From Strigamia acuminata (taxonomy: Eukaryota), in the NCBI GenBank assembly GCA_949358305.1, contig OX442314.1, positions 2,480,001-2,544,000 on the forward strand: a stretch of DNA of 64,000 nt, written 5' to 3'. The notes under the pieces were generated by a model, which was not told the origin of the DNA, made no database searches, and worked only from the letters and a program-made list of their open reading frames with translations. Below, one piece after another: positions 14,713 to 64,000 of this stretch. Made by a program: the position numbers and the translations under genes. The stretch's first letter is position 1; each line of letters begins with the position of its first letter.

Positions 14713-15258
14713 GTCCGATTAAATGTTGTTGTGCATGTTGTGAGAGAGTTGTGTGGCGTGAGTCAGCGCGGCGGAATTTGCCAACAACAGAGGGAGGAAA
14801 ACCGGTCCGTGGTTGCCACGCTCCACGGCCCCGCTCGTCTGGTGTCAATGTCGTGCGGCGACGCTGACCGATTCGTTGGATTCGGTCTGACAAAGCATAA
14901 AACTTGAAGTGAATAAATCGAAAACAAATAGTTCGGGTTTAAACCGATGGAAAGCACCTGTTTCGCCACTTTCCTCCCACGGTGACCGCAATCGAAATAA
15001 GATCTCGGATCGATGAAATCGAAATTTTAAGAAAAATAAATAAATAAATTTTTATTTTTAAATAAAAAAACATAAAATAATTAATTTAATTTAATTTATT
15101 TGTTTATTAAATATTTATTTAATAAAATTTTATGAAATTAATTTAAAAGTTTTATTTACTGCGGGACTGCCGCGCCATGTTCGCAAATGGCGGCCGGTTG
15201 AAGGAATTATGTACACACACGACGAACATCGTGAGATATTTCCACTACTCGTTATGAA

Positions 15259-28365: not shown

Positions 28366-28920
28366 GCCAGAAATCTCACAACCGCTTGTTCTTTAAAAGG
28401 TTAAAAGTTTTACACCAATATATTATAATTTAATTAACAACAGCACGGATAATACGTTTTTACAGTAATCATGTCTGTGCTGATATTTCAATCAAATGAA
28501 GCGATCAATAACAGCGAATGTCGAGAGACCAGTGAGAATACCAATTACAGATCCAATATTTGAAAACAATTTTGCGACCGAAACTTTTCGCATTTCTTCA
28601 ATTACTTCTCTAATGTTTTGTTGTATTATGTATGTAGTACGGCTACGGTGATTTAAAGGTGGAGGTGGTATTTCCCTTTTGTCTATCACCGCTAGATTAA
28701 ATATGGCTTCTTGGCATTGTTCTCGGCAGTTACAGTCTTTCTGAGGGTTTGTTTTCATTTGAGTTTCCAAGTAAATTTTTTGCATTGCTTTAGCTTTTTC
28801 TAGAGAAGTGCAAAGCGATGAATTGCTATTTTGCATAAATGGTAATCTGTGAATAATTGAAAAAATAAATAATATCTACTCAGATCTAGTGCTCTGTAGG
28901 AGACAACAATGAGGGGCGCT

Positions 28921-29426
28921 ATACTGGGAGCAACATGTCTAACAGCAACATTGCTCTTTGACATGTTAAAGGAATGTCTAAGAGCAACATTGCTTTTCGG
29001 CATGTTAAATAAATATCTAAGAATAACATTGTGTTGCTCTTAAACATGTTAAGTAAATTGCTATTAGGCATGAAAATGTAATGACCAAGAGCAACACCAT
29101 ACATTTTTTTTTTCAAAAACCAAAAATGTAACCTAACCTAACCTGACCTGACCTGACCTGACCTGACCTGACCTGACCTTACCTGACCTAACCTACCCTA
29201 ACCTAACCGATGAAACGCACCGAGCGGAATTTAAATTCGATGAAACGACTCCCGTTTTCCCACATTTCAAAAAATAATAAAAAATTAGCAATGTTGCTCT
29301 TAGACGTTATTAGGACTTCAACTGTTGTGCCACGTCATTTTTTTAATAATGTCTAAGAGCAATGTTGCTCTTAGACATTATTAGACCAACTTGAATTGTT
29401 GCTCTTGGGCATGTTGCTCCCAGTAT
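28921..29426. mobile_element. Non-autonomous TIR element with internal subrepeats and (ACCTG/ACCTA)n tract
   Basis: Inverted ends ATACTGGGAGCAACATG / CATGTTGCTCCCAGTAT; no TSD recognised. Confidence 0.7.
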
Positions 29427-29884
29427 GCGGCAGCGTAAACCACATACGGAACGTATGCCAAACGTTACAAAACCTTCTGCAAAACGTTCACAAAGTCTCA
29501 GCAAAACTATCGTAACAAATTAGTAAAAATAGTGGTAATATCAGTTTCTTTTTTGAAGTTTAATTTTATTGGGAAAATTAGTTAATTTGGGTTTAGTTAA
29601 AATAGTGGGACAAAAAAATTAATTTAGTGTGAAAGTCAGTAGGTTGAAGATTTAGTTTTTATTTAATGGAAATCCAAGGAAAAATATTGGGCCAATAAAT
29701 GGGACTTTATATATTGACCAATTAACTTATGCAAACACATTGGTTTTATAAACACCCGTGTTCCCGATTAGTTCGGAAAATTTTCCAAGTTCATCATCCT
29801 GGTTTGGCCTCCAATTAAAATGGACTTGGTCTTCGCCATGACACCTGAAGACTGGTTACCATGGTGTGGGACGACCCATCCTCA

Positions 29885-30319
29885 TGTAATAATTAGACAG
29901 GGACTCCGGATTGTTTGGTTTTTGTCCTTTAATCAGTTGCTAGGGGTCGTAGTCTCCTATCTACCCACGTGTTGGCAGTGCAGCAAAGGCACTCTACACT
30001 ATGAATGACATGGCCGGTCAAACATAACCATTCTGGCTGTATTGGATCCATCATCGCACTACTGAGTTTCGCAGTGATAAATGGGGAGGAGAGGAGAGTC
30101 AGCACAGAGCAAAACGACTCTTGCTGGCTTCAGGACTTCTCTTACACGTTTTTCTCGGTTGAGACCCACCGCTTTTCTCTCCACTCCCCACACCACTGCA
30201 GCTCTCTCCTTCCCTATACTGGGTCATACAGTACCACTTTTCTAATAGGGATGACCTTAGGGCCATTGGGCAGTGTATGGTAGTGACGCAGATCACTCTT
30301 GGCTGGCCAAGTGGTCACA
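29885..30319. mobile_element. Putative solo LTR related to 25263-25755
   Basis: TGTAATAATTAGACAGGGACTC...GGCCAAGTGGTCACA. Confidence 0.5.
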
Positions 30320-30369
30320 TCTTTTTACAGTGTGCTTTAGAATAATGTGATTTGCTTAATTAGTTAGAT

Positions 30370-30803
30370 CAGCGTTTCCCAAACGGTGAGGCGCGAGCTG
30401 ATTTTTGGTGGGGCGCGACACATCGCTCACAAAAAATTTCTTTTTTAAAAATTTTAACAATCAAACTAACTTATAGACATGATGCCCTCCCCTTAGAATA
30501 GTGCACTTGTCTTGTCGTCTAGAAGAGTCAATTCTATCTAGACAATACACAACTGCCAAATTCAAATCCATTTCAGTTTGTGTGCTCAATTCTATTATGG
30601 ATAAATGGCTGATAAATAAGCCTTCATGCTCATAAAATTATATGTAAAATTGTATAAATTGTATGCAATATTATATAAAAATTTCTTTTTTCTTTTAAGT
30701 AGTTCATTTTTGAAAAATTTAATGCACCGGTAGATGAAGTGGGGCGCGGAAGATTGCCTTGCTTAAAAATGGGGCGCGATGCTAAAAAGTTTGGGAACCC
30801 CTG
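30370..30803. mobile_element. hAT (Charlie-like) MITE
   Basis: CAGCGTTTCCCAAAC / GTTTGGGAACCCCTG ends; perfect 8-bp TSD AGTTAGAT. Confidence 0.9.
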
Positions 30804-32608
30804 AGTTAGATGATCATAAGTTATTACCTGCAAGAAACATTCAGTTTGGATGCATAACATTTCCGTTCACATTCTGAAACTTCCTTGTTGTCATCACATG
30901 GCCTTTTTGGAGTATTTATTCGAAGAATCTAGAAGGAACAAGTGTCTTACAAATAACAAACAATTTTAAATTACTAATTACTAATTACTAAATTACTAAT
31001 TTACCGTTTGACGGGTAATATCATTTTTAGTATTGAATCCGGAGTGTATGTAAACAATATGTTTTAGGAAGAAAAAATTGATCTTCTGGCAGAATGAAGT
31101 GCTAGAAAGCATGAATTGAAATATTTTATGTAATTAAAGTGTTCAAAATATCTCACTGGCTGCTTTCTGTCGTAGCCTATCCTAACTTTGTTCAAACTGC
31201 TCCAAATGTAGATATAGTTCTTATACGGTATGAACTTCATTTCCCCTAGAAACAATTAGAAATAAAAATTATTGTCTGGCGTGTTTTATTATGGGAATTA
31301 CTGCAATCGTGAATCAAAGTTAACATAAACACATATCATTCTGTTCAGTGCGGTTTGCTATCGAAGGCGCCACATAAAACTGTATATAGCTACACTGTAT
31401 TCTGGGATGACAACAGGTAACAAACATGCTTAGTTAGCAAGCAATGCATGACACGTGATTGCTGTCATCCAAGTGAACGTGATTAACCGTCGCGCGATGG
31501 AGCGGCGCGGTATGAAAAGTCGGGATATAGGCAATGTGAAGTATAGCTTACCTGCAGTTAACACTTTGAAATAAATTGTTGTGCACGAAAGCGTTTTTAC
31601 ACTTGAAATGAACATTTTTGTTCTCTTCGCATGGATTACGCTTTGTATTTCTTCGTATAATCTATTAAAAAGAAGCTTAGTATGACAGTTTATATAATTA
31701 TTTCAATTACCTTATATTCTCGAAGTGTTACAGTGATAAAATATCCATAGTTTAAAACCAGTAGTGTCAGAAAGTTATATTCCTCTTCGTGGTCGTTTAG
31801 TAATAGCTGAATATTATAATAATCCAAAATAATTATATCATCACCATCTTCATATACTTGTAAATGATTTATTTATATGCTAAAACTACCGGGTGGCCCA
31901 CATAAAACCGGAGAAAAACTATTGTCAGGCCAGGTGTCTTTTCACCAACCGATTATTTCCAAGGGATTTGGATTGGATGTGACAATTACTTTGTAGAATG
32001 ACGTGTGTAAATGAATTCCATTTCTAAAGTAGTACAGTACAATCTTTTATCAGAAGGTGAAATTCTGCCATTTTTACTCCATTCGGGTTGACACTTCCCA
32101 GTTACACCTTTTAACATCTATTAATTATTATTCACCATTTTAGGTGTTATAAATTTTTATGAAGCTTTTTTCATGTTTTTTCACCTTTTTCCACCTTTTT
32201 TCCACCTTAAGCTATTTCTAGCAGTTTAAATACATTGGCATAATGTGCTTTCGAAATATTAAATTTGTTTTTCGTTTTGGTCAATTGAAGTGTTGAATTA
32301 CCGGATTATATTTTTCTTTCTTGTGCTACTGTATAATCAACTGCTTCAATAAATAGATTTTCTACATTCCATCAATATTGTGTACGGTATAAATCCAAGT
32401 GTTGAAACTGTCAATCCGAGCATTTTTTAAAATTATTCTAGTGGTCATGCTGTGACGGTTAAAAAACCGTATTATCCAATGTTCACACTAGACGGCGCTG
32501 TTTATCTAACGCGCGCAGTTTAAACTCGAGAAAATTACGAGTTATATTAAAGAATTAATATAACGTTGTGAATAAAATATATAGTATTTTATTCAATCTA
32601 ATTAAGTA

Positions 32609-33391
32609 CTCCCTCTGTCCCAAATTATGGTATACATTTCTCTAAAAAATTCTTGATTATTGTTGGTTTTGTATATTTCTAAGATATTTTAACTGAATAT
32701 CCTTCAAAATTAAGTGTGTTTGCTAACCAATGGATTGCATTATGGGTAATTAGTTTTATCATTCCGTTATTGCTGAGTTGCATCTTCTCAAAATGCACTC
32801 AAAATTAAGTGACACCTGTTGTGCTTAAAGTAAAGTGAAAATGAATTTGAAAAATGGCTGTTTCCAAAGAAAAATGTCAAAATGGAATAAATTTACTAAT
32901 AATCAGCAAAATTGTATACAACAGCTCTAGCTGAAACAAAGAATAAGGCACCATTAATGAAATTTGCAAGCAAATTGAAATTACTCCACTAACTATTTCA
33001 CGAATTCGACGAGAAGTTAAAAAACAATACAATGAAGGACATATTCCTGCCAAAAGATAAACATAACAATGTATTTTTGACATTGCAATGTTGTATGGAG
33101 TCAGGGATGATAGCAAAGAATGGCAACAATTACAAAATTCACAAATTCAGAGCAATTATTACAAGTTATTGTTATGGAGTATTATTTATTGTTATTGTTT
33201 ACTCTTTATTTTTTATTGTTATTATTTACTCCATATTATTTGTTGTTTACTTAATTTATTTATAATTTAACTTATTTATATTAATTTTGCATTTTTATAA
33301 TGATAAAAATCAAATAAAACTTGAAATGTATACCATAATTTGGGACAAAAATATTAGTAGAAATGTATACCATAATTTGGGACAGAGGGAG
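32609..33391. mobile_element. Stowaway-like Tc1/mariner MITE
   Basis: TA|CTCCCTCTGTCCCAAATTATGGTATACATTTC ... GAAATGTATACCATAATTTGGGACAGAGGGAG|TA. Confidence 0.9.
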
Positions 33392-33931
33392 TATTATTTA
33401 CTTGAGATATTGATTCTATCGAATCAATATCCTGTTTTACTTACCTGTCGAAGAGAACCAATCAAAGTCTTCTGGACACAGTCTCTATTAGGTCGAGACT
33501 AAAGTGACCCACGAATCCATCGATTCGGGCATCTGATTGGCTATTGCCAATCCTACTGTTCTTCTGAACTATATAAGCTCTGGTTTTCACCAGAACTACC
33601 CCTTGGCCTGAATGAATATTGTTGTATTGCATTGTTGTTATCGTATGATCTCACTTTCTCTCACGACACATCGGGCCTCCTCAGCTCTCAATGGATATGT
33701 ATTATTACTATCACGTTATTGCTTGTTGTAGGGCCCATCTGGGAAGGCTAACCTTGTAAACATGTTTATGTTAAATACATGAAATGGCTCCGTAGCGTTA
33801 GCTTGCTGTTCTAAGGGACAGTTAGATTTCGTACGGTGGCGTAGTATATCGCTCATACACGGGATTGACTAACCCGTTAAATAAATGTCAAACTATATGA
33901 TCGGTGATAGTCGCATCTATTTGCGCTAATA

Positions 33932-35415
33932 CAACCCCAAGCGAAAATATTGAAATACTCGGATTTTGTCAGTATTCCATGTTCCCCAAATGGGCTAAAA
34001 ACAAAAGTTTCAAAGTTAAACAAATATCCACAAAAATACTTTGAAAACATGTTTAATTGGCTTTATTTTAAGCAAAAAAAATTTAAAAAAGGTGAGATAT
34101 TTATCCCACTATCCACAAAAACGTCTGTGACAAAACATTAGAATCACAAAAGTGTTGAGACAAAAAATTAGAATAATTGTGAGAAGAGACAGAAATCTTA
34201 TCTATCCCACTCATTTAAAAAATGATAGCATTTAGTATTTGGTTGGTCTTCCTTTTGCATCAATCACAGCCCTCACTCGTCGCGGCATCAAGTCCACCAA
34301 CTTCTTACACTGCTCACTAGTAATAGAGGCCCACACCATGAGCGGGAGCCAGGTCATGTTGAAAAATAAATTTATCATCACTGAACATTGATTCTGATGA
34401 AGGCATCATGAAGTAGTTGAGTATCTATTGATACACAGCAGAGTTTATTGTACCTTTCACAAACGTTAACTCCCTCATTCCAGATGCAGCCATACAACCC
34501 CACACCATGACACAAGCAGGAAATTTTACACACTTCTTCAAACAGTTTTTATTGTACATTTCATGTTTTTCCCACCAAACTCGTGGACCCTGGTCCCCAT
34601 AATATAAGTTAAATTTTGATTCATCGCTGTAGAGAATCATTGCCCATTGGTCTGGGGTCCAATCTATCCTTGCCTTGCATCACTCAAGTCTTCTTTTCAT
34701 CTACTTGCTGCTTAGAAGTGGTTTTCGTTTGGGAACACGAGGTGCCAATTGAAATTCATATAAACGACACAGTGTTGTACATTGGGAGACATTTATTCCA
34801 TTTTTTCCCACTGTGCATGATGAATTTTAGATGACTTGAAACGGTTATTCATTACAATCGAATGAAGTTTGCGATCATCTTGTGGTGTTGTTTTACGTTT
34901 TCATCCACTATAGTGCCGCATGGTGTTTAGTCCTTGTCCAGAGGTAATCTGCTTTATTGTTTTGGAAACTGCAGATTGACTGCACCCTACAATTGTTGCA
35001 ACTGATCGTTGTTTACGACCGGCTGCATTAAGTTAGACAATCTGCTCTCTTTCTCCATGGAGATGTCATTGTTGGCACCCATTTTAATTTAGTCATAATG
35101 TGTACACATTGTTTGAGGTTATTTGCGGCAATTTGGTCACGTGGAATGATGTTTTGCTAATTTTTGCAAATTATTCTAATTTTTTGTCTCAACACTTTTG
35201 TGATTCTAATGTTTTGTCACAGACGTTTTTGTGGATAGTGGGATAAATATCTCACCTTTTTTAATTTTTTTTTGCTTAAAATAAAGCCAATTAAACATGT
35301 TTTCAAAGTATTTTTGTGGATATTTGTTTAACTTTGAAACTTTTGTTTCTAGCCCATTTGAGGAACATGGAATACTGACAAAATCCGAGTATTCTAATAT
35401 TTTGGCTTGGGGTTG
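33932..35415 (-). mobile_element. Tc1-like transposon with ~240-bp TIRs and a degenerate transposase
   Basis: TA|CAACCCCAAGC ... GCTTGGGGTTG|TA; motifs ILYSDESKFNL, VMVWGCMAASG, MPRRVRAVIDAKGRPTKY; frameshifts and deletion. Confidence 0.92.
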
Positions 35416-36531
35416 TACTTGATCATAGGTCAGATGCTCTGCCAGAGCACATACACGGGAAGTCGAACCCGTTAAACAAATATGGGCAACCTATCTCCTC
35501 AGGGTCCAATGCGGTGCATTTGTCCTTCCGTATGTTAAAGGTTGGTAAAAGGCCTATTCATAGGCAACACGCCGGGTTGGTAGCCCTTGAGCAATTGCAT
35601 TCATACCTTGCGCAAAACCAATACTTGGGTATTGGTAATGCCGATCTGGTAGTCCCCCAGGAACTGTTTACCCAGTGGTTGGTACCACTGAAAGCGACTT
35701 GTCGCACGCAAACAAATACCCGGCGCCTGATCACGAGATCTTGTCGTCGTAAGGCATGCTGGCGGATGGAGCCTCAACAACTCCCGCGATGGTCCCCTCG
35801 ACTATCGTGACTGTCCCCGCCCAAAGAATAACAATATAACAATTCATTTGTTATATTACATTAATAATGTTTCGTTAACTAGATCTCGGAATATTCTAAT
35901 GAACATTCCCGTCCAAATGCGAAGGACTCTTCGCATTAATAGATACTCGAGCTGCGGGACCGAATACGTCTCCGTAGCGCTAACTGTGACGATGCCGCAA
36001 AGTCAGCCGCACCCTTCGAGCATCGCCCGGATCCTCAACCAGTGTAGCCGCCGTTACACTTATCCAGAACCCCCAACCCAGTTGTAATGTTAATAAACAT
36101 GTAATATATCGCACGAAAACTGTAAGTTATTATATTTGATCACATATTTACGTTGCACAGACTTCCGTAGCTTATCTCGGTTAGGTTGTTACTAGGTTTA
36201 GTAATGTCTTGTTTAAACCGATTTATCTCTTATAATGGTTAATTATTCAGCCAAAAGTAGAATCGTTACAATGCTGCATTTCGTAGCATCATTGTGTGCT
36301 GTGATTGCAAAGTATCGTGTGTTTTGTGTGAAAGTGTTTTACCATACCTTTAGCTGCTGGTCACATACATTTGATGAAACATTTGCATTTCTAAATAAAA
36401 TTCTAAGGATAGGAGTAAAACGTCTTTGTTTTGCTGAAAAACAGTGAAAGGTCGGAATCAATTTTCAAATGCATCACCGAGAATGCAACTTTTGGAAACA
36501 AGAGTTTGAACAACATGTCTATTGTCTACTG

Positions 36532-36944
36532 TATACTCTGGCTTATCGTAAGTGGGTACCCAGTTCCTATTGGCCGAGCCTGTTTACTCCTAACTGCAGC
36601 CTTTATATTACCACCAGGAAATGTAGTTTTGTTGTGTTTTACATTTGTGTCATTATTGTAATGGTTGAAATGATGTTAATTTGCTAATATTTACTAATAA
36701 AATGTTTTAAGAAACCATAAAGCAATGTTTTCTGCTATTATTGTTTTAAAATACCTGTTTGTTCAGTTTGTTTATTTTATTGGTTGCTAAGTCAGGAAAG
36801 CAACCATTTTTTGAATTTTATGATTGATTGTTTTGTCTGGCAAGCACACAACATGTATTTTGGCCTATTTTCATGTATACTTACATCGGCCAATAGGAAC
36901 TGGGTACCCATTGGCCGAGCCATTTTAGGGATAAGCCAGAGTAT
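36532..36944. mobile_element. MITE with TATACTCTGGCT / AGCCAGAGTATA ends
   Basis: Terminal inverted repeats; the same ends occur at ~58256-58859 and in the duplicate copy. Confidence 0.65.
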
Positions 36945-38372
36945 AGTAATTAACTAAAATTAAGGCATTAACTAATTTTTTTTTCTTTCATGTTTTACAT
37001 CAAGTACTGTGTTTAAACTCAAGAACTAAAAGAAATTAATTTTGTAAATTACTTGGTTTTAGTTGCATACAATTTCCAAATGGAAATTTCACACGCTGCT
37101 TTGGTGTTAACTATAAAAAAAATACATTATTTTTGTGTTTGTTGTAGGAATATGTCTTATTATTTGTTACATTCAACGGATCGTTTATTATTTCAAAGCT
37201 TGTCACAAGTGTTTTCCAGATGTCCTCCACTGACAAATTGTTATTGACCAAATGCCAGGGTAACATGTTGCTACAAGTTGTATTGGTGTTTTGAAGCAAG
37301 TGTAATCTGGCTCTTTCTACATTTTCATTTTGCACTTCACCGCAGAAGGTGATTAAAGGAAATTGGCTGTAGCGCCTTTGAACTACTCTAACGATTGTTG
37401 TTACCGGTTCATCGAAGTAGTAGTTTGAACGAATGTAAACGCAATATAAAGTCAACCCTGCAACAACTAATACAAATATTAACTTGAGCTTTTTTGCGAC
37501 CTTATTTACGTTGGTTTGGCCGTCACTTTTGATGATTTTGTTTTTGCACGTCTTATACAGACGATCAATCGCATTATCGGTTTTCTTTTGGTGAATGTGC
37601 GATGTAACGTAATACAAATACGAAATGACATCAGGTAATGAGACTAAGGAGAGACCAAGGAACAGGCCCAGGTTGCCTCCTAAATCGGACAGTAAGGCAA
37701 TGACATCGTAAATGTACCGTTGTTCATATACGGTGACTTTCTTATTAGTAATTGCTAACGATACAGCCGTCGTATTTTCATCATTTGTTACGCTTGAATC
37801 AGTAACTGGGGTAAAAATTATTTGTCGACACGGACGTCGATAGTGGCAACCAATTGGTTCTGTGGTTAAAACCAAATCCCTGAAAGCAACATACAGCTTG
37901 CGTGCATTGTTTGTACATTTGCAAAGTGGTAAGTCTGTCTTCATGAATGGATATCTCGTGTAGAAGATGTTTAATTAGTTTTTTAATTGTGTGATGTATG
38001 TGAAACGGTCTTACCTGCAGGTCATAAATTTATTAATTTTTTTCATTAAACAAGTTTGATAGCATTGTTTGTATTCGTCTTCACTAGCGCATGGATTTAT
38101 CGGTGAATTAAGAAATACAAACTACAATTAAATACATTACAAGGTATCGCTAAGAAATTTTAAGTTCTTGCGTAAACATAATACTTTGTCATAAGTGTAA
38201 TCTATTTTCAATCTTGAACCACCATATAGATTTGCTAGCTGCCACTCTGTTCTAATATCATGGGACATAAGAAAAATCTAAGAGCAAGGGAAAATAATAA
38301 TAAAATAGCAATAGCAATTCTACTATATTTAAGTTACCACACGAAAAGAGCCGCATTCACTGATTTTTACGA

Positions 38373-38756
38373 CTAGTAAAACAACCCAGTTGCGATTGCA
38401 GCACGCGCGAGCAGCAATTGAAAGACAAGATGTTAAAACTTAACTAGTTTAATGATGGAAATTTTGTTACGAAAAAACGCGTGCTAACACACGTTCATAC
38501 ATAAAAAAAGATGGTGGTCAACCCCAAAAAACGGGGTCAACTTCCGGTCAACAAGGACCGGTCGCTGAATTTACATACCAGAGGGCTCTTGTAACAACCC
38601 TCGATAAGAACAATAATATAACACTTGTAATTAATTCAAACACTGTAAAACATATCGTTATTCAAATAAATTCAGAAAACAAATAACTTGGACTAATTTT
38701 AAAACTAACATAAAACATGAAATTTAACACTTTAACAACAATATTAAATCGACAGA
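38373..38756 (-). mobile_element. Possible non-autonomous Helitron inserted in a DEG/ENaC exon
   Basis: Minus strand A|TC ... CTAG|T without TSD; only an imperfect subterminal hairpin. Coding-like sequence (ECGSFRV then GT donor at 38337) resumes after it. Confidence 0.4.
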
Positions 38757-40961
38757 TTTTACACTGATCAGGCTGTCTTTTGTTTCAAAATTCACTGTTA
38801 GTAACTTTTCAACAAATGATTCGCTAGTAGTTTCAGCTGTGTCAATGAATAACATTAGTGTAATTTAGTGATAAATGCTAGTTTGTAGTTACGAAATTGA
38901 AATGTTGAGCATATTCTGCGTATATTATTAGTTTTCGTCTGAACAACAGTGTTATTTGAATATCCCTAAGCAAATACGTTTTAAAAATTGAGTTTTTACT
39001 AAACTTGTTTTTTCTTTTTTTCTTTTTTTTCTTTTTTTTCTTTATTAATTTTTTTACTTTCATTTGTATACTGACTATCTCATCAGTATTATTAGTTGCT
39101 TTCCAGAGTTCATCCATATCGTAACTTGTATTTTCAAAGTTCATCAGTGCATCAAACGTGGTTATGCATGGATCGGCTATTGATTTATATTTATTTGATT
39201 TCAGAATTTCTGCCCGAAGCTGGAATAGTTTTTATGTATTGACACTACAGATCATTATGTCAGGTAAATTAACATTTTCCGATCTACTGGTTATGTCAAC
39301 AGCGGTAGGATAACTTAAGTAATGCATTATTCTGTCGTATGTCTGATAAGTATTCATGCACATGCAAAATGAGAATAAAAGCAGCCAAAAGATGTGATGT
39401 TTGTCTCGTTTCCTACTCTTTATAAAATCATCTAAACCAATTAAATTGCAGTTGGGTTTGTGGGCATCATCCTTCATTAATTTGAGAATTGTCAGACAGA
39501 GTTTTCTTTTCCCTCTTCTGTATCTCCACGTCAAATTATTATTCTCCATTAATTCGGTACCTTCCAAGCTCGTAGAGATAGTGAATGAGTTTGATCTAAC
39601 TATTTGTTTGCTTGAGCACACATGCAGAGGGACTGCCAAACTGAAAAAGAAAACAAAATTATTTTTTTAACATCTGCGATGCTCAGTGGTGAGATGTCAG
39701 ATCCACCACAGCCTCAATGAGTGGTTGCATGGGCCACACGGGTGAGTACGGCAGAATAGTTATGTCCAACTGGCCACGTCACCCATGGAGATCCCTCTCT
39801 TGTGCGACAGGTCGGTTGCTTGTGTGGCATGCCTTTGTGGCACTGCCAAAACATGTGTAGAAGGGAAACCAATCCCTAGACAAATGGATTAAAGGCCAAC
39901 AAACCAACAATCTGGAGTCTTTGTCTATCTGATATTTACGTGAGTATGCGGCCCACCCCATGGTATCTAGTCCCCAGGTTATCCTGGGCAAGACCACAAC
40001 CTGGGCGAAATGGGAAAAATCTATCACTGTACTTTTTTGGGTGCAAATGAGCTGGTCTGAATGGAAAACACGAATGTCCAAATGTTTTTCAGTTCCAAAT
40101 TCTTAAGAAATTGTGGGAAACTTTAAGTCTATACAGTACGTCAATTAACTATGGAATTAAATTTTAACAGCATTTGGGCCAAAAATCTGTTTGATTTTTC
40201 TTCCCATTTATAGATAAAATTTTGATTTAGGCATAGAATAACTTATTAAAATGAATTTTTTTTACTTAACCAAAACTTTCTTGAAAAGAATGAAAAGAAC
40301 CATTTAATTTGGTTTTTATTTTGGTGGTTTAATTTTTGGTTGTTGGTCAAAATCAAAATTTCTTAACTTTAAGCTGTTTTACTCAGCTTTAGAAAGCTTA
40401 CCTGAACTTTGGTGTGCAAATGATGACTTGAGCTTAGGATAAGACAGCAGACGAGGAAAATAAAACGTTGTTTGTTTCTAACACCGTACAGCTGTCGTGT
40501 GAGATATCTTAGAACAACTTGGCCCAGCTGACTCTCAGTATCTACAACAGCTTGCTTTCAAATGCAAAGAGAAAAACAAGTTAGTAAATCATTCATTTTA
40601 TGATGAAGATTATGCGTCATTAAAAAAGGCCTATGAATTATATTTCCGGTGTTTTTGAAATCAATCCTTGAGAGTTTTTAACGACATAAAAGTAGTTCTG
40701 TATCTTCAATAGAGTTGACCCAAACACCAGGAGCAAGTGAGCAATATTTGTTAAAAATGAGAATGAAAAATGTTTAATACACCTTCCACACCTCTTGATT
40801 ATAGAACTGTAAACAATTAGCTAATTGAACCCCGTCGCTTATTCGAACCCCGCAACTTTTTAAATTTTTTTAGATTGTTTCCAAGAAACGATAATTTTCT
40901 TGTTAAAATCGCTAATTTTTGCAAGAAAATTATCGTTTTTTAAAATTGAATGGTTTACTTT

Positions 40962-51109: not shown

Positions 51110-52020
51110 TTACTTTGTATGCTTTGTCAAATGTTTTTTAAAAGTATCATTTCGACTACTAGAATAAGCACACAAATGGCACTTGAATGGTTTTTCTCCA
51201 GTATGGGTTAACAAATGCATTTTTAAATTACTACTTGTAGTACAGGAATATGCACACAAATGGCACTTGAATGGTTTTTCTCCTGTGTGGGTTAATAAAT
51301 GCTTTTTTAGACTTCCACTTTCTCTGCAGGAATAAACACACAAATGGCACTTGAATGGCTTTTCTCCGGTATGGGTCAATAAATGTCTTCTTAAAACCCC
51401 ACTTCCAATACAGGAATAATCACACAAATGGCACTTGAATGGTTTTTCTCCTGAATGGGTTAATAGATGACTTTTTAAATTCCCACTTTGATTGCAAGAA
51501 TAATCACACAAATGACAATTGAATGGTTTTTCTCCACTATGGGTTAACATATGATTTTTTAGAGTTCCACTTTCACTGCTGCAATAATCACATAAATGGC
51601 ACTTGAAAGGTTTTTCTCCCGTATGGATTAATAAATGTTTTCTTAAATTACCACTTTGAATGCAGGAATAATCACATAAATGGCACTTGAAAGGTTTTTC
51701 TCCCGTATGGATTAATAAATGTTTTCTTAAACTGCCACTTTGAATGCAGGAATAAACACACAAATGGCACTTGAAAGGTTTTTCTCCAGTATGAGTTCTC
51801 ATATGGACAATCATGCATTGTTTAAGTCGAAAGGAAAGTGCACATGTTTGACATTTGTAAGGCTTTTCACCAGTGTGTTTGAGCATGTGATGTTTCAAAA
51901 GATAACAATTTGAACACGAATAGTCGCACAAATTGCAACTGTATATTTGAAGTTTACTTTCCATTTTTGACTTTCAGTTTTTCGCAGATGACTCCCGATG
52001 ACGCCGAAGTAAACTTATTC
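51110..52020 (-). CDS. Tandem C2H2 zinc-finger protein (10 fingers), terminal exon
   Basis: Ten CxxC..HxxxH units with TGEKPF linkers; splice acceptor near 52020; upstream exon(s) not resolved. Confidence 0.9.
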
Positions 52021-55431: not shown

Positions 55432-58400
55432 TCAAAATTGAAGAAGAGAAAAGAAGGAGAAACCAGTAAGAATACCAATAATAGATCCTATCTGACAAAA
55501 TAACTTTACAATGGTAATCTCTGGCTGTTCTTCAATTATTTCTCTGATGTTATTTTCAAAGCTATACGAAACAGATTTTGTGAAGACTTTCCAGTCCTCT
55601 ATGTTGCTGGTGATTGAAGGATTGAAGATGGTTTCTTGACAAGATGCTTTGCAGGAACATTCTTCCTTGGGGTATGTCGTCATCAGAGTTTTCAAATATG
55701 TCTCGTAAGTTGTTTTAGCCGTCTCTTGAGATAGGCAAATGGGGAATTTACTTTTATCCATGGATGGAAGTCTAGTAATACAACAATATTTAATGGAAAT
55801 ATACAGTGTGCCATGACACATGATTTTTTCCAGTTATTAAAAATTGTGCATACATTTGAACTGTTTGGGTGCACGAGGGTAGCAAGGTAGATCAAATGTG
55901 ACAAATTAAATTTATTGGTAAAAATGACAATTTGTGACGATTCTACTTTTAGGCTAAATTATTAGCCATTTTAATAGATAAATCAGTTTAAACAAGACGT
56001 TGCTAAACCTAGCAACAACCTAACCGAGGCAAGCTACGGAATTCCTTGCAGCATGAATCATTAATCGAATAGAAATAACTTACGGTTTTGTATGACATAA
56101 AACATGTTTATTAACATTATAAATGGGTTCGGGGTTCTGGGCACTTGTAAACGGGCGGCATCAACTGGTTGAGGATCCGGGCGAAGCCAGAGGGATACGG
56201 CTGACTTTACGGCATCGTCACAATGAACGCTACGGAGACGTATTCAATCCCGTGGCACGAACAGCTATTTAATGTGAAGAGTCCTTCACATTTGATGGGA
56301 ATATTCTTTAGAATATTCCAGGATCTAATTAATACAAAGTTATTAGCGGAATATAACAATTTATTGTTTTATTATTATTATTGGGGCGGGGACAGTCACG
56401 ATGGTTGAGAGAACCATCGCGGGAGTTGTTGAGACTCCATCCGCCAGCATGCCTTACGACGACAAGATCTCGTGATCAGGCGCCGAGTATTTGTTTGTGC
56501 ACGACAAGTCGCTTTCAGTGGTACCAACCACTGGGTAAACATTTCCTGGGATTACCAGAGCGGCATTACCAATACCCGAGTATTTGTTTAATGTAATATT
56601 TTCACGGCTATTACTCACGAACTACCAACCTGGCGTGTTTACCTGTAAATAGTGTTTTAACCGACCTCTAAAATACGGAAGGACCTCCTGTACGAGAGCG
56701 AACCCTGAGAATATGGCTGTCCATATTTGTTTCGTCTTCGGGTTCGACTTCCCGCATACATGCTCTGGCAGAGCGTCTAGCCTACGACCAAAGAATCGCA
56801 TCGACAGATGCGACCGTTACCGATCATAAGATGGCACAGGTTAATCATCCTGTGCTTGGATGCTTGGATGCTTGGATGCTTGGATGATTTACTATGTCAC
56901 CGTACAGATCTCGCTGTTCCTTGGAACAGCAAGCTAAAGCTACAAGGCTATTTCATCTATTTAACATGTCTATTATCGGAGTCAGCCTTCCCGAAAGGGC
57001 CCTACAACAACAATAACAAAATAGTATTAATACTAATTGTGAAAAGCTGAGGAGGCCCGATGTGTCGATAGTGAAAGAGAGATCAAACGATAACCAATAC
57101 AACTACAGACAATATAAACATATTCAGTATCAAGCCAAGAGGGTTTTCTGGTGAGAAACCAGAACAGTGATATTGGCGATAGCCAATCAGATGTCCGAAT
57201 CGATGGATTCGTGGGTCACTTTAGTCCCGACCTAGTAGAAGACTTGGTCTGGACCTAGCAGAAGACTTGGTCCGGACCTAGCAGAAGACTGGGTCCAAGA
57301 GAGTCCGATTGGTTCTCCCCTTTAAGGTAAGTAAAACGGGTTATTGAGTCGGTAGAATCAATATCTCAACTAAATAATATTTAATTATGCTGAATAAAAT
57401 ATCTTATATTTTATTCCCGTCAACAAAACAATGATTTATCATAATTCTAAACTTTCTCGAGTTTAAACTGCGGGCGTTATTTAAACAGCGCCATCTAGTG
57501 TGAACATTAGTTATTACGGTGTTTATAACCGTCACAAATTGCTTATGTTATGATCATTTTTTTCAATGATTTGAAAGCTTTAAACATAAATAATTTTTTT
57601 TTAGTTTAAAAATTTTTCAGAAACTTTAATAAATTGTGCTTCTCCAACATTTTTGTTGTTTTTGTTGTTTATAAACACCAATAATCACAGAAACGGAATC
57701 TTTGAATACACCGGCTGTTACCAATAAATTTGCTCCACTTGATTGTTAGAAATATACCGTATACTCAAACAATGTGTGTAGTGTATGATTTGTAAATTGC
57801 AATATGGGATGCACGGTAATTAGTGGATGAATTACAAGTTACCTGCAATTGAAAGGTTGTTGCTCAAGTTTCTTTTCAAAGCAGTCTTCTTCACATCTTA
57901 AAACTTCATCATTTGGTCTGCAAGGACTTCTCGGGGTATTTAATCGAACAAGCTGGAAAGATTAATCAACTAAGTGGCAATTTGAACAGATTGAACAAAT
58001 TGGGGCCCCAAATCAAAGAAAAATTTGATTTTGTCAAAACTGTCGATAATTTCTCAAAAGTGACAACAATTTATCAAATTTGATAAATCCGTCAATTTAC
58101 GGTCGGCGCATTCAATAGCACTCGTTAAACATTTTTTCTATTTATATTTTTTTAATCAAGAGATTTAAATGACAACTGATGCAGATTAAATTGGGTGCCA
58201 TTTTTGAAATCTAATCACTCTATTTAAAATATTGCAATGGCTTTTCGAATGTGCTTATACTCTGGCTTAGGTTGGCCTTTCGCCCATTGGTCGAGCCACA
58301 CACAAAAATAGACCAAAACACCAGAAATGCAATTCATGTTCACTACAAATTTTTTCAAAGTGAACCAAGTTCTAGATCGCGAACTTGAACCAATAGTTCA

Positions 58401-61400
58401 GTTTACTTTTCAAAATTTGTTTTTAAATTGAAATTACAACACTCAGCCCTGATTGGCTGTCACATAAAACGTCTAGTGGACGTATCATCAACATTTTCAA
58501 AATGTTGATGATATTTCCACTAGAAATGTCATTTTGTAAATTTCGAATTTGAATTTGAAATTAAAAAATTATCGAAAAAATTCAATTGAATTGAAATTGT
58601 CAAATTGAGTGACTAATACCAACAGCCTCTAGGAACTTCCCTGCAACACAATCACTGATTTATTTATATTTTAAGAACTTAACAAAGTGAACGCAAACTT
58701 CGTTCACTTATAAAAGTGAACTAGTTCGCGATCTTAGTTCGCGAACGCGAACTAATAGTTTGCGTTCGATACAACACTGGTTGTAGTACAGTTTACAGTT
58801 AGAAGTAGTGAGACTCGGCCAATGGCAGAAAAGGCAACCTTATAGTGAGCCAGAGTATAGTGGAGTTATCATTTTTTGAATTCACCGTTTGAGGGTTAAA
58901 GTTGACAAAAGCACTTAATTTGCTGGGTACATCAAAAAGATATTTCGGATGAAAAAATTGATTTGTTGGCAAAATGAAGTGCTGGAATACATAAAGTCAA
59001 ATTAGTAACTACTGCAATTAACAGTGCGAAGGATGAACTTCTATCTCACTTCTCGTTTAAGAGGACAGTAGGGACTGGGCTGATCGACAATCAATAGAAA
59101 GGTTCTTTTTCGAACAAATGGCCGGTCACCTGTGTACAAATATTTTAGTGAGAATTAAAAGAGACTTTTTTTTTTTTTACCTTTATTGAATGCAGTACAC
59201 ATTCCATACACTGTTTGTTTTAATGAGAAGTTGGCAAAATAAAATGCAATATCCTCTGCTGTTGCCCCATACTATAAGTTTGTTAAATTTTTACACTTTT
59301 GAATTGATAACTGTTATTAAAAATTGTGCATACATTTGAACTGTTTGGGTGCACGAGGGTAGCAAGGTAGATCAAATGTGACAAATTAAATTTATTGGTA
59401 AAAATGACAATTTGTGACGATTCTACTTTTAGGCTAAATTATTAGCCATTTTAATAGATAAATCAGTTTAAACAAGACGTTGCTAAACCTAGCAACAACC
59501 TAACCGAGGCAAGCTACGGAATTCCTTGCAGCATGAATCATTAATCGAATAGAAATAACTTACGGTTTTGTATGACATAAAACATGTTTATTAACATTAT
59601 AAATGGGTTCGGGGTTCTGGGCACTTGTAAACGGGCGGCATCAACTGGTTGAGGATCCGGGCGAAGCCAGAGGGATACGGCTGACTTTACGGCATCGTCA
59701 CAATGAACGCTACGGAGACGTATTCAATCCCGTGGCACGAACAGCTATTTAATGTGAAGAGTCCTTCACATTTGATGGGAATATTCTTTAGAATATTCCA
59801 GGATCTAATTAATACAAAGTTATTAGCGGAATATAACAATTTATTGTTTTATTATTATTATTGGGGCGGGGACAGTCACGATGGTTGAGAGAACCATCGC
59901 GGGAGTTGTTGAGACTCCATCCGCCAGCATGCCTTACGACGACAAGATCTCGTGATCAGGCGCCGAGTATTTGTTTGTGCACGACAAGTCGCTTTCAGTG
60001 GTACCAACCACTGGGTAAACATTTCCTGGGATTACCAGAGCGGCATTACCAATACCCGAGTATTTGTTTAATGTAATATTTTCACGGCTATTACTCACGA
60101 ACTACCAACCTGGCGTGTTTACCTGTAAATAGTGTTTTAACCGACCTCTAAAATACGGAAGGACCTCCTGTACGAGAGCGAACCCTGAGAATATGGCTGT
60201 CCATATTTGTTTCGTCTTCGGGTTCGACTTCCCGCATACATGCTCTGGCAGAGCGTCTAGCCTACGACCAAGGAATCGCATCGACAGATGCGACCGTTAC
60301 CGATCATAAGATGGCACAGGTTAATCATCCTGTGCTTGGATGCTTGGATGCTTGGATGCTTGGATGATTTACTATGTCACCGTACAGATCTCGCTGTTCC
60401 TTGGAACAGCAAGCTAAAGCTACAAGGCTATTTCATCTATTTAACATGTCTATTATCGGAGTCAGCCTTCCCGAAAGGGCCCTACAACAACAATAACAAA
60501 ATAGTATTAATACTAATTGTGAAAAGCTGAGGAGGCCCGATGTGTCGATAGTGAAAGAGAGATCAAACGATAACCAATACAACTACAGACAATATAAACA
60601 TATTCAGTATCAAGCCAAGAGGGTTTTCTGGTGAGAAACCAGAACAGTGATATTGGCGATAGCCAATCAGATGTCCGAATCGATGGATTCGTGGGTCACT
60701 TTAGTCCCGACCTAGTAGAAGACTTGGTCTGGACCTAGCAGAAGACTTGGTCCGGACCTAGCAGAAGACTGGGTCCAAGAGAGTCCGATTGGTTCTCCCC
60801 TTTAAGGTAAGTAAAACGGGTTATTGAGTCGGTAGAATCAATATCTCAACTAAATAATATTTAATTATGCTGAATAAAATATCTTATATTTTATTCCCGT
60901 CAACAAAACAATGATTTATCATAATTCTAAACTTTCTCGAGTTTAAACTGCGGGCGTTATTTAACACTAGAACGGCCAGACCGGTCATTTTGACCGGTAC
61001 AGCTGTTTAAACAGCTGCAGCAATAAACCCAATGGGTTTACGGTGCTGCTAATTTGTGACTTTAGCTGATTTATGATGCTTTATATCATAAATCATCAAA
61101 AGTTGAATTTTTCTTAAGAAATAATAAAAAAAAAAGTGAATTGACCTAGAACGGCCGAAACCGGTTAAAATGACCGGTTGAAATCACCTGAACAATACGT
61201 GCACCAAACTGCACTAAACGTGCACCAAACGTGCACCAAACGTGCACAATATGTGCATACAACGTTTTGGCATCAAACTGATTCAGTAACACGCGAAACA
61301 TGCGAAGAAAATACCAAAACAAAAATTGATGGTTTTTATAAAATCTGATAAAATTAAAAACGGAAATTTAATTTTATCAGGTTTTATAATAACCATCAAT

Positions 61401-64000
61401 TTTTGTTTTGGTATTTTCTTCGCATATTTTGCGTGTTATTGAATCAATTTGATGCCAAAACGTTGTTTACACGTATTGTGCACGTATTGTAAAAGTATTT
61501 TGCATATTTGGTGCACGTACTGTTCACGTTATTGCAACCGGTCATTTTAACCGGTTTCGGCCGTTCTAGGTAGGCCGAAATTCCGGCCGTTCTAGTGTTA
61601 AACAGCGCCATCTAGTGTGAACATTAGTTATTACGGTGTTTATAACCGTCACAAATTGCTTATGTTATGATCATTTTTTTCAATGATTTGAAAGCTTTAA
61701 ACATAAATAATTTTTTTTTAGTTTAAAAATTTTTCAGAAACTTTAATAAATTGTGCTTCTCCAACATTTTTGTTGTTTTTGTTGTTTATAAACACCAATA
61801 ATCACAGAAACGGAATCTTTGAATACACCGGCTGTTACCAATAAATTTGCTCCACTTGATTGTTAGAAATATACCGTATACTCAAACAATGTGTGTAGTG
61901 TATGATTTGTAAATTGCAATATGGGATGCACGGTAATTAGTGGATGAATTACAAGTTACCTGCAATTGAAAGGTTGTTGCTCAAGTTTCTTTTCAAAGCA
62001 GTCTTCTTCACATCTTAAAACTTCATCATTTGGTCTGCAAGGACTTCTCGGGGTATTTAATCGAACAAGCTGGAAAGATTAATCAACTAAGTGGCAATTT
62101 GAACAGATTGAACAAATTGGGGCCCCAAATCAAAGAAAAATTTGATTTTGTCAAAACTGTCGATAATTTCTCAAAAGTGACAACAATTTATCAAATTTGA
62201 TAAATCCGTCAATTTACGGTCGGCGCATTCAATAGCACTCGTTAAACATTTTTTCTATTTATATTTTTTTAATCAAGAGATTTAAATGACAACTGATGCA
62301 GATTAAATTGGGTGCCATTTTTGAAATCTAATCACTCTATTTAAAATATTGCAATGGCTTTTCGAATGTGCTTATACTCTGGCTTAGGTTGGCCTTTCGC
62401 CCATTGGTCGAGCCACACACAAAAATAGACCAAAACACCAGAAATGCAATTCATGTTCACTACAAATTTTTTCAAAGTGAACCAAGTTCTAGATCGCGAA
62501 CTTGAACCAATAGTTCAGTTTACTTTTCAAAATTTGTTTTTAAATTGAAATTACAACACTCAGCCCTGATTGGCTGTCACATAAAACGTCTAGTGGACGT
62601 ATCATCAACATTTTCAAAATGTTGATGATATTTCCACTAGAAATGTCATTTTGTAAATTTCGAATTTGAATTTGAAATTAAAAAATTATCGAAAAAATTC
62701 AATTGAATTGAAATTGTCAAATTGAGTGACTAATACCAACAGCCTCTAGGAACTTCCCTGCAACACAATCACTGATTTATTTATATTTTAAGAACTTAAC
62801 AAAGTGAACGCAAACTTCGTTCACTTATAAAAGTGAACTAGTTCGCGATCTTAGTTCGCGAACGCGAACTAATAGTTTGCGTTCGATACAACACTGGTTG
62901 TAGTACAGTTTACAGTTAGAAGTAGTGAGACTCGGCCAATGGCAGAAAAGGCAACCTTATAGTGAGCCAGAGTATAGTGGAGTTATCATTTTTTGAATTC
63001 ACCGTTTGAGGGTTAAAGTTGACAAAAGCACTTAATTTGCTGGGTACATCAAAAAGATATTTCGGATGAAAAAATTGATTTGTTGGCAAAATGAAGTGCT
63101 GGAATACATAAAGTCAAATTAGTAACTACTGCAATTAACAGTGCGAAGGATGAACTTCTATCTCACTTCTCGTTTAAGAGGACAGTAGGGACTGGGCTGA
63201 TCGACAATCAATAGAAAGGTTCCTTTTCGAACAAATGGCCGGTCACCTGTGTACAAATATTTTAGTGAGAATTAAAAGAGACTTTTTTTTTTTTTTACCT
63301 TTATTGAATGCAGTACACATTCCATACACTGTTTGTTTTAATGAGAAGTTGGCAAAATAAAATGCAATATCCTCTGCTGTTGCCCCATACTATAAGTTTG
63401 TTAAATTTTTACACTTTTGAATTGATAATTTAATATTCTGATTTTTTTTTACCTTGATTGCAGATCTTCGGTCTTTGTCGTATAAATCAAGACGAGACGA
63501 GACATTCCATAATTGCAGTGTTTGATTTGCGAATTCAGATAGTGGATGGAGTAAATCCAACAGTTGTAAATGATCACAATCAGTTGTGTTGAGTTTTTGG
63601 GCTAAGTCCTTTTTAGCAGCTGATATGATTGTACTATCTGTACATGCAATGATGAGTGGAAAATGAATTTTTTCATCTCTAATGAGTTTAACAGTTTTCA
63701 AGAGTTGAAATTGAAAATATGAATCAATCAAATGGTAAATGTAGTAGACAGATATCAAGCCAAAGAATAGTGAAGTTGTGATTTTGATCACTTTTTGAAC
63801 AAAAGTTGGTTTTCGGTTATTCTGTATCTTTTCAAGTGACATTTCAATTTTATCTGTCAACTTGGAATTTGCTGTTGTTGGTTTGTTGGTGCATGTTTTG
63901 CATGAGTGAATGAATATTTCGACCAAAGTCAAGCAAGACATGCCGAAATAGAGGCCGATGTTTCCTCCAATGTCGCATAGCAAATTGATGATGTCATAAG
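55432..64000 (-). CDS. Second concatenated DEG/ENaC gene, 3' portion; 5' part lies outside the window
   Basis: Junction exon 63453->64000 (LCDIGGNIGLYFGMS...TM1...FPLIIAC), then 63299-63389 (TVYGMCTAFN), 63167-63246, 63003-63098 (HFILP), 61960-62069 (thumb) and last exon 55432-55771 (CQIGSIIGILTGFS*). Phases are consistent; four exons are duplicated at 57843-59271. Confidence 0.88.
55933..57536. mobile_element. Solo LTR (1.6 kb); duplicated at 59413-61653
   Basis: TGTGACGA...CGTCACA ends; 4-bp TSD AATT; same family as 32451-36270. Confidence 0.88.
60965..61597. mobile_element. piggyBac-like (TTAA-specific) MITE
   Basis: TTAA|CACTAGAACGGCC ... GGCCGTTCTAGTG|TTAA; the empty TTAA site is present in the other duplicate at 57481-57484. 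Confidence 0.93.

What the first reader, a model, noticed from the sequence alone, without database searches (positions are those of the whole stretch)
63453..64000. Second paralog shows an independent TM2-to-TM1 junction, probably the one missing from the first locus
Seen: LCDIGGNIGLYFGMSCLTLVEIF, a linker, then VIKITTSLFFGLISVYYIYHLIDSYFQF...FPLIIAC in one exon. The downstream exons (HFILP..., LNTPRSPC, IGSIIGILTGFS*) match the terminal domain of the left locus exon for exon (HFILPEDQ, INTPKRPC, IGSVIGILTGLS). They do not match its middle domain, which has a different exon pattern. Inference: this is junction 2-3 and 37171-37954 is junction 1-2, so the fusion is a family trait and not an assembly accident.
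Basis: partly seen in the sequence, partly recalled or inferred. Interest (0 to 1): 0.85.

Follow-up and report, generated by a model that had tools for sequence, protein, structure and literature searches.

The report
Centipede channel with two fused subunits
This centipede-like gene joins two sodium-channel subunits head to tail in one open reading frame, as many relatives in the centipede Strigamia do, so it likely encodes a two-subunit chain for a channel type that is normally built from three separate subunits, not the three-subunit chain first proposed.

Summary
On the minus strand, 63998-63453 is one open frame holding TM2 of one DEG/ENaC (ASC) domain, a ~43-residue linker and TM1 of the next. 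The fusion is a family trait: 24 named Strigamia maritima proteins carry such a junction. Domain trees and leave-out profiles place the domain upstream of this junction with the left locus's first domain, so both junctions are the same 1-2 junction of a two-domain gene. The left locus has only two TM1 and two TM2; its 'third domain' is the 3' remnant of another paralog. An AlphaFold model of a full two-domain relative folds as two complete subunits, closest to the centipede sensors BRTNaC1 and PDPNaC1. Most likely the chain fills two of three slots of a trimeric cation channel; assembly, expression and gating are untested. Both window copies look damaged. I found no report of naturally fused DEG/ENaC subunits in the searchable literature. 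New variant of a known family; interest 0.66.

The parts
63453..64000 (-). Right gene: junction exon, runs off the window. TM2 of domain 1 (63998-63933), cytoplasmic linker (~43 codons, predicted helix), TM1 of domain 2 (63803-63633) and start of its ectodomain
63299..63389 (-). Right gene domain 2, exon 2 (YGAT...CTAFNK), 91 nt
   Evidence: AG/GT ends and frame
63167..63246 (-). Right gene domain 2, exon 3, 80 nt
63003..63098 (-). Right gene domain 2, exon 4 (HFILP...), 96 nt
61960..62069 (-). Right gene domain 2, exon 5 (LVRLNTPRSPC...), 110 nt
55833..63430 (.). Tandem duplication (59313-63430 and 55833-59312) repeating exons 2-5; 3 substitutions, one 1-nt indel, and a 637-nt palindromic insert (60961-61597) in one copy only. 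377 coding nt, so splicing both copies shifts the frame
55432..55771 (-). Right gene last exon: thumb, terminal TM2 (QIGSIIGILTGFS) and stop, with almost no C-terminal tail
38015..39549 (-). Left gene domain 1, exons 1-5 (39549-39058, 38965-38893, 38836-38763, 38277-38185, 38121-38015); in-frame TAA at codon 106
37171..37954 (-). Left gene junction exon: thumb and TM2 of domain 1, ~47-codon linker, TM1 of domain 2; orthologous to the right junction
31552..37110 (-). Left gene domain 2, exons 2-5 (37110-37053, 36433-36348, 31806-31711, 31661-31552); its own last exon with TM2 is absent from the window
28492..31245 (-). 3' remnant (exons 3-6) of a domain 2 from a separate, right-type paralog; no TM1; one-base frameshift in exon 4.

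Best explanation
The exon joins TM2 of one DEG/ENaC subunit to TM1 of a second in one open frame and is likely the single junction of a two-domain gene, whose four-helix chain would fill two of the three positions of a trimeric cation channel, a separate subunit likely filling the third. Shown: the open junction; its recurrence in S. maritima; two position-specific domain classes; the same five intron phases in both domains. Inferred history: an ancestral six-exon gene was duplicated in tandem, the last exon of the first copy merged with the first exon of the second, and the fused gene then multiplied as a unit. Predicted: each half folds as a complete subunit and the linker is a cytoplasmic helix, so topology is kept (N in, two ectodomains out, C in). 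Inferred function: fusion fixes the order and ratio of two diverged subunits; domain 1 keeps the canonical pore residues while domain 2 has lost several, giving an asymmetric, probably poorly selective pore; by kinship to BRTNaC1 and PDPNaC1 it is probably a sensory channel for protons, heat or chemicals. Confidence by step: two-domain architecture about 0.85; translated as one chain in some family members about 0.75; 2+1 assembly about 0.5. The two copies in this window are probably damaged members of a birth-and-death family.
For: Junction in 20 S. maritima proteins of the two-domain group, none with a second junction; T1JD34, T1ITL7 and T1IPM9 read TM1-TM2-TM1-TM2 from start to last TM2; linkers 42-70 residues in 19 of 20. 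Trees: upstream and terminal classes each one side of a branch (94/94 and 92/90, 36 rows; 89/90 and 86/92, 53 rows); subfamily groupings mirror each other in the two classes, and the right gene's upstream domain sits in a 96/90 clade with T1IT41 and T1IP81, whose domain 1 is N-terminal. N-terminal halves give the same upstream class (94/92). Leave-subfamily-out profiles assign 35 of 36 segments to their own position, all 5 right-type upstream domains to domain 1. Intron phases 0-1-0-0-2 in both domains. AlphaFold of T1JD34: pLDDT 79.9, pTM 0.76; residues 51-381 match PDPNaC1 (Z 20.5, rmsd 3.6, 318 aligned) and 423-786 match BRTNaC1 (Z 22.0, rmsd 4.5, 328 aligned). The window's own junction is predicted as helix 12-37, linker helix 42-61, TM1 66-96 (pTM 0.39). 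Pore: D-x-G-G in 8 of 8 first domains but the second G replaced in 8 of 9 second domains; acidic residue at 18' in 6 of 8 against 2 of 9 (read; role of E18' from passages of PMC5449180). DNA contigs of three public runs from two studies: 87, 110 and 61 contigs lay on this exon at 85% or better, some with TM2 and the TM1 side on one contig. Engineered ASIC concatemers conduct (PMC5449180 passages); DEG/ENaCs are trimers (PMC10148893 passages).
Against: The window holds only about 30 residues of the upstream domain; its class rests largely on S. maritima proxies, and no right-type model reaches the N-terminus. The AU rejection depends on the model (0.0125 against 0.115). Without the TM2 columns support falls to 80/86 and two upstream rows leave the clade; in the N-half tree the after-junction domains do not form one clade (3 changes). 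S. maritima entries are uncharacterised gene models, most of them fragments. The left gene has a nonsense codon and lacks its own last exon; the right gene has a frame-shifting exon duplication. No listed contig spans the whole exon and the best run may be the window's own source. The third subunit is not identified.
Confidence: 0.55

Rival explanations
1. One reading: a three-domain, single-chain trimer in which 37171-37954 is junction 1-2 and this exon is junction 2-3.
For: Three domains would match the three-fold channel. The left locus has three sets of thumb exons. The right last domain is nearer the left terminal piece than the left middle domain (37% against 20%). Three-domain S. maritima models exist (T1IU28, T1IZL2). 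AU test not significant under the mixture model. Upstream of 64000 unread.
Against: Upstream domain classes with domain 1 and the left middle domain with terminal domains; left locus has two TM1 and two TM2 only; its terminal piece groups with T1JC02/T1IZ33, a different subfamily from the rest of the left gene; the three-domain models form a separate clade of near-identical repeats (100/100); none of 20 two-domain-group proteins has two junctions.
Confidence: 0.08
2. Two-domain chains assemble only with each other: three chains make two tethered trimers, two chains make a trimer with one domain left outside, or two chains make a four-domain pore.
For: Needs no unknown partner; the group is much expanded (20 proteins) while few single-domain S. 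maritima relatives were named (T1IGW0, T1JKA6). The linker is long enough to be flexible (pLDDT under 50 at 400-402 and 412-420).
Against: All solved relatives that I read about are trimers (PMC12714832, PMC10148893 passages); pTM 0.76 suggests a defined packing of the two halves, though I could not inspect the angle between them; a four-fold pore has no precedent among the structures matched.
Confidence: 0.2
3. The chain is a polyprotein: the linker is cut, or domain 2 starts on its own, and the two subunit types assemble freely at 2:1 or 1:2. Fusion then only ensures co-expression.
For: Solves the symmetry mismatch; linkers are rich in Lys and Arg and poorly conserved; the right linker holds a Met.
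Against: No conserved cleavage motif or Met in the linker alignment, and the left linker has no Met; the linker is cytoplasmic by topology; most second domains lost the pre-TM1 segment that free subunits keep, only T1JF12 and T1IT41 retain it.
Confidence: 0.1
4. The fusion is non-functional or an annotation effect: neighbouring single-domain genes or pseudogenes that merely lack a stop between them.
For: Both window copies carry lesions; an open linker arises in 5-9% of shuffles; gene predictors favour stop-free paths.
Against: Both junctions are open in raw genomic DNA; the junction recurs across eight subfamilies only about 20-30% identical, with linker length held at 42-70; domains co-diverge by position; a 241-residue protein from an unnamed ENA contig of 1154 bases has it too (P0026).
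Confidence: 0.07

Closest known systems
BRTNaC1 (PDB 8YMR/8YMW) and PDPNaC1 (PDB 9JF7), centipede antennal DEG/ENaC channels
   Same: Best sequence matches among solved structures (E 2e-43 and 5e-35, next family 5e-17) and best fold matches to each half; compact ectodomain; no HG motif, as stated for PDPNaC1 (PMC12714832 passage).
   Different: They are single-domain proteins of 431 and 421 residues with two TM helices; PDPNaC1 is a homotrimer. About 20% identity only; BRTNaC1 has seven exons and PDPNaC1 nine, against six per domain here. Their gating residues were not mapped.
DEG/ENaC/ASIC/pickpocket family (Pfam ASC, PF00858)
   Same: ASC match, TM1-ectodomain-TM2 fold, Cys-rich thumb, G-x-S motif.
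   Different: Two subunit units per chain, four TM helices; second domain lacks the gate Asp (right subfamily), the G-G pair and mostly E18'.
Engineered ASIC concatemers (e.g. PMC5449180; listing)
   Same: Head-to-tail TM2-to-TM1 linkage through a cytoplasmic linker, which fixes subunit order.
   Different: Man-made; here natural, two domains per chain, 42-70-residue linker with most of both termini lost.
Internally repeated channels: Nav/Cav (four repeats), two-pore channels and K2P (two repeats) (recalled, from no call)
   Same: Intragenic duplication turns a homo-oligomer into a pseudo-symmetric chain whose repeats diverge.
   Different: In those the repeat number divides the four-fold symmetry; two does not divide three.
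S. maritima three-repeat group (T1IU28, T1IZL2, T1ITG7, T1IL99)
   Same: TM2-to-TM1 junctions in the same species, two per chain in T1IU28 and T1IZL2.
   Different: A separate clade of near-identical repeats (100/100), so a second and younger fusion; not the window's genes. Also uncharacterised.

Membership tests
DEG/ENaC (ASC) | Pfam ASC match above the curated cut-off | tested here: met
   35.9, 56.3, 39.5, 27.1 and 46.7 bits against cut-off 23.6 for five window exons
DEG/ENaC (ASC) | Subunit fold: TM1, large Cys-rich ectodomain, TM2 | tested here: met
   Met twice in a full-length relative (T1JD34): Z 20.5 and 22.0 to PDPNaC1 and BRTNaC1; the window's spliced protein itself could not be folded
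DEG/ENaC (ASC) | G-x-S motif in TM2 | tested here: met
   GMS and GFS (right), GLS and GLS (left); G-x-C or G-x-T in 3 of 9 second domains
DEG/ENaC (ASC) | HG motif before TM1 (typical, not universal) | tested here: not met
   No HG at that position in the 26 rows; PDPNaC1 also lacks it (PMC12714832 passage)
DEG/ENaC (ASC) | One subunit unit (two TM helices) per chain | tested here: not met
   TM2 runs in frame into a second TM1; this is the variant feature
DEG/ENaC (ASC) | Trimeric assembly | not tested
DEG/ENaC (ASC) | Cation conduction and gating stimulus | not testable with these tools
   needs electrophysiology
   Left locus two TM1 and two TM2; no second junction in 20 group members; right gene unread beyond 64000
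   Two classes only; AU p 0.0125 and 0.115
BRTNaC1/PDPNaC1-type centipede sensors | Closest solved relatives by sequence and fold | tested here: met
BRTNaC1/PDPNaC1-type centipede sensors | Proton-sensing residues (D217/E218 in BRTNaC1) and antennal expression | not tested
   residues not mapped; no expression data

The most novel reading that the evidence does not exclude
Centipedes built DEG/ENaC channels that escape the plain three-subunit rule: the two-domain chains assemble without any single-domain partner, either as two chains around a four-domain pore or as three chains tethering two trimers, while a second, independent fusion in the same genome makes single-chain three-domain channels.
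Probability: 0.2. Interest if true: 0.92.

Novelty: new variant of a known kind. Interest (0 to 1): 0.66.

Why it matters
DEG/ENaC channels are described as trimers of separate two-helix subunits, and laboratories fuse subunits artificially to fix their ratio. A large natural family that fuses two diverged subunits poses a symmetry puzzle (two into three) that can be tested directly by expression and cryo-EM, and it shows pore asymmetry evolving by position. It belongs to the centipede lineage that gave the heat sensor BRTNaC1 and the proton sensor PDPNaC1, so it may be a large unrecognised sensory repertoire in a blind centipede. It also warns annotators: long multi-ASC models are not always prediction errors, since similar fusions appear separately in Strigamia, shrimps and a midge. 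The proteins have been public as 'uncharacterized' entries; six targeted searches and word searches in 12 papers showed no description of the fusion, but subscription papers and supplements were not seen.

Tried and rejected
Expression: no RNA holder listed, which is no evidence either way; run X4 laid 0 contigs. A profile search with alignment A1 returned only T1JD34 among 7988 scored candidates. ESM Atlas gave only generic ASC clusters of about 400 residues at 0.91. No earlier findings of the scan matched. No tRNA genes. Rejected: missing left exons hidden elsewhere or inverted in the window (six-frame scan found none); a different exon pattern in the left middle domain; P0039 as a single-domain outgroup (it is a two-domain fragment whose model skips the junction; relabelled terminal); homology of the centipede fusion with shrimp and midge fusions (quick tree with many long branches puts them apart, except one shrimp domain 1 among centipede domain 1, weak). 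Summed contig depth was not used as copy number. Rows dropped: shrimp and midge domains and P0018_s2; rows under 28 residues in the columns used; N-terminal partial duplications trimmed from P0005, P0014, P0017; four rows incl. the window's upstream stub; the stub was too short to score.

Full report
OBSERVATION. The minus strand from 63998 to 63453 is one open frame of 182 codons ending at a GT donor. Pfam ASC matches it in two stretches, best residues 1-30 to the end of the profile (E 6e-9). Family profiles place a TM2 at 63998-63933 and a TM1 at 63803-63633. So the end of one DEG/ENaC subunit runs in frame, through about 43 codons, into the start of another. With exons 63389-63299, 63246-63167, 63098-63003, 62069-61960 and 55771-55432, all with AG/GT ends, the frame stays open for 420 residues to a stop just after the terminal TM2. 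Exons 2-5 are present twice in a tandem repeat (59313-63430 and 55833-59312; three substitutions, a one-base indel and a 637-base palindromic insert in one copy). The block is 377 nt, and splicing both copies shifts the frame. The linker being open is weak evidence alone: 450 and 269 of 5000 shuffles keep the right and left linkers open.

RELATIVES. A search with this exon among longer proteins gave 3 hits among 476 candidates, all Strigamia maritima, 43-53% identical over 98-100% of the query, so across the junction. A HMMER scan of 1.84 billion representatives with the left junction exon gave 240 hits, of which 150 were listed. Of the 156 proteins held, 35 have TM2 followed by TM1 within 150 residues. 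Of these, 24 are named S. maritima, one is from an unnamed ENA contig, two were not looked up, and eight are shrimp or midge. The window is therefore likely from a centipede close to Strigamia (inference from hits). Twenty of the 24 have one junction; T1JD34, T1ITL7 and T1IPM9 read TM1-TM2-TM1-TM2. The other four form a separate group, with two junctions in T1IU28 and T1IZL2. In three public DNA runs of two studies, 87, 110 and 61 contigs lay on 63320-64000 at 85% or better, 8-10 of them at 99% or better, and single contigs matched both the TM2 side and the TM1 side (joints 63581-63931 and 63680-63938). No listed piece spans the whole stretch, a fourth run laid none, and the best run may be the window's source. 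A loose end beyond 63991, read by eye on the minus strand, continues as TLQERRSYD, like the strand before TM2 in T1JF29. The fusion is a multi-copy family trait.

WHICH JUNCTION. I split the proteins into domains and built trees. On thumb plus TM2 (162 columns), the domains before a junction form one side of a branch and the domains after it another: 94/94 and 92/90 with 36 rows under LG+G4, and 89/90 and 86/92 with 53 rows under the mixture model, bootstrap not fully settled (quick version). The right gene's upstream stub and five S. maritima counterparts lie with left domain 1, in a 96/90 clade with T1IT41 and T1IP81, whose first domain is N-terminal. The left middle domain, the right last domain and the left terminal piece all lie in the terminal class. 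Subfamily groupings mirror each other in the two classes, as expected if one fused gene was duplicated whole. Without TM2 columns the right-type upstream domains still go with left domain 1, at 80/86, and two upstream rows drop out of the clade. In the N-terminal halves the upstream class holds (94/92) but the after-junction domains are unresolved. Profiles built with each whole subfamily left out assign 35 of 36 segments to their own position; the miss is a 35-residue piece. The two junctions in the window are thus most likely the same 1-2 junction.

THE LEFT LOCUS. A six-frame scan finds three TM1 and four TM2 in the window; the left locus has two of each. Its model is domain 1 (five exons from 39549), the junction exon 37954-37171, and four exons of domain 2 to 31552. 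Then, 300 bases on, come exons 3-6 of a domain 2 that groups with T1JC02 and T1IZ33, a different subfamily. The simplest reading is a deletion or unequal crossover between two tandem two-domain genes. There is a TAA at codon 106 and a one-base frameshift in the remnant. Intron phases are 0-1-0-0-2 in left domain 1, left domain 2 and the right last domain.

STRUCTURE AND MECHANISM. AlphaFold on T1JD34 (791 residues, 80 rows) gave pLDDT 79.9 and pTM 0.76; TM2 continues as one helix to residue 412, and TM1 of domain 2 starts at 423. Each half matches a whole subunit: 51-381 to PDPNaC1 (Z 20.5) and 423-786 to BRTNaC1 (Z 22.0), above ASIC1 at about 15. The sequence search agrees (E 2e-43 and 5e-35, against 5e-17 for ASIC5). 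The window's own exon is predicted as TM2, a linker helix and TM1 (pLDDT 77, pTM 0.39). BRTNaC1 is a heat- and pH-gated non-selective cation channel of centipede antennae (PMC9974506: passages and section 7). PDPNaC1 is a proton-gated homotrimer without an HG motif (PMC12714832: abstract start and passages). First domains keep D-x-G-G in 8 of 8 and an acidic 18' residue in 6 of 8. Second domains replace the second G in 8 of 9 and keep an acidic 18' in 2 of 9, and the right subfamily has Gln or Asn at the gate Asp (read). In ASIC1a each E18' adds to Na+ selectivity (PMC5449180 passages), and Asp433 forms the upper gate of the trimer (PMC10148893 passages). I infer an asymmetric, weakly selective pore. 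Because two does not divide three, the chain needs a partner or an unusual assembly. I favour 2+1 with a single-domain subunit such as T1IGW0 or T1JKA6 (named; T1IGW0 falls inside the radiation at 95/91).

NOVELTY. Searches for natural fusions returned nothing relevant: one search listed 5 unrelated papers, none, five unrelated, and none on the point among 20 of 984 listed. Searches gave background listings. Word searches inside PMC4244043 and PMC5850775 found no ENaC terms. Passages of PMC8438182, PMC5203786, PMC5952958, PMC7067487, PMC3583452, PMC10148893 and PMC9822975 showed no fused subunits. I read no supplements and no whole text; gene tables in supplements of the Strigamia genome or chemoreceptor papers, and subscription papers, may mention these models. 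The comparison with Nav, Cav, TPC and K2P is recalled. Verdict: a new architectural variant of DEG/ENaC, real as a family trait, two-domain rather than three-domain at this locus, with function inferred and both local copies probably damaged. Interest 0.66.

Noticed in passing
P0049 (Halocaridina rubra), P0053/P0151-P0155 (cluster with Penaeus vannamei), P0056: Shrimp proteins with three ASC units; the middle one is much reduced in the Penaeus cluster and P0056. Five Logan contigs of 3.4-4.0 kb carry the 1001-residue frame, so probably transcripts. Domains 2 and 3 group by position across the two shrimps (88 and 96): a candidate natural single-chain trimer.
   Followed up: partly
P0008, P0009, P0010, P0018 (S. 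maritima T1IU28, T1IZL2, T1ITG7, T1IL99): A second, younger fusion with at least three near-identical ASC repeats, separate from the two-domain group (100/100).
   Followed up: partly
P0040 (Polypedilum vanderplanki PVAND_003017): 1460-residue pickpocket-type model with three ASC domains and linkers of 32 and 40 residues; could be real or merged tandem genes.
   Followed up: no
P0130/P0156 (unnamed ENA contigs): 636-residue protein in which, by eye, a TM2 runs on into a second N-terminal segment and TM1; not caught by the centipede profiles.
   Followed up: no
window 55833-63430: Recent tandem duplication with two extra bases at the joint and a 637-nt palindromic, MITE-like insert (60961-61597) in one copy; real duplication or two haplotypes assembled in series.
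   Followed up: partly
window 32451-36271 and 55932-57536 / 59412-60964: The same repeat family (70-81% identical) sits in introns of both channel genes, in opposite orientation and in different introns; the left copy holds a nested element with 249-nt inverted ends (33930-35417) and a decayed transposase-like frame.
   Followed up: no
window 7428-10079 (-): DUF4470 plus MYND-finger gene. The BRTNaC1 figure legend lists a DNAAF3-like neighbour; a weak synteny hint only.
   Followed up: no
window 15235-18162 (+), 44013-45263 (-), 51116-51943 (-), 607-1380 (-): Neighbours: a MutL-family mismatch-repair gene (MLH3-like by recall), a leucine-rich-repeat frame, a C2H2 zinc-finger array between the two channel genes, and a WAP-domain gene.
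   Followed up: no
P0014, P0059 (T1JF12, T1IT41): Only this subfamily keeps the pre-TM1 'PGL' segment inside the linker (69-70 residues), probably the ancestral state before linkers shortened.
   Followed up: partly
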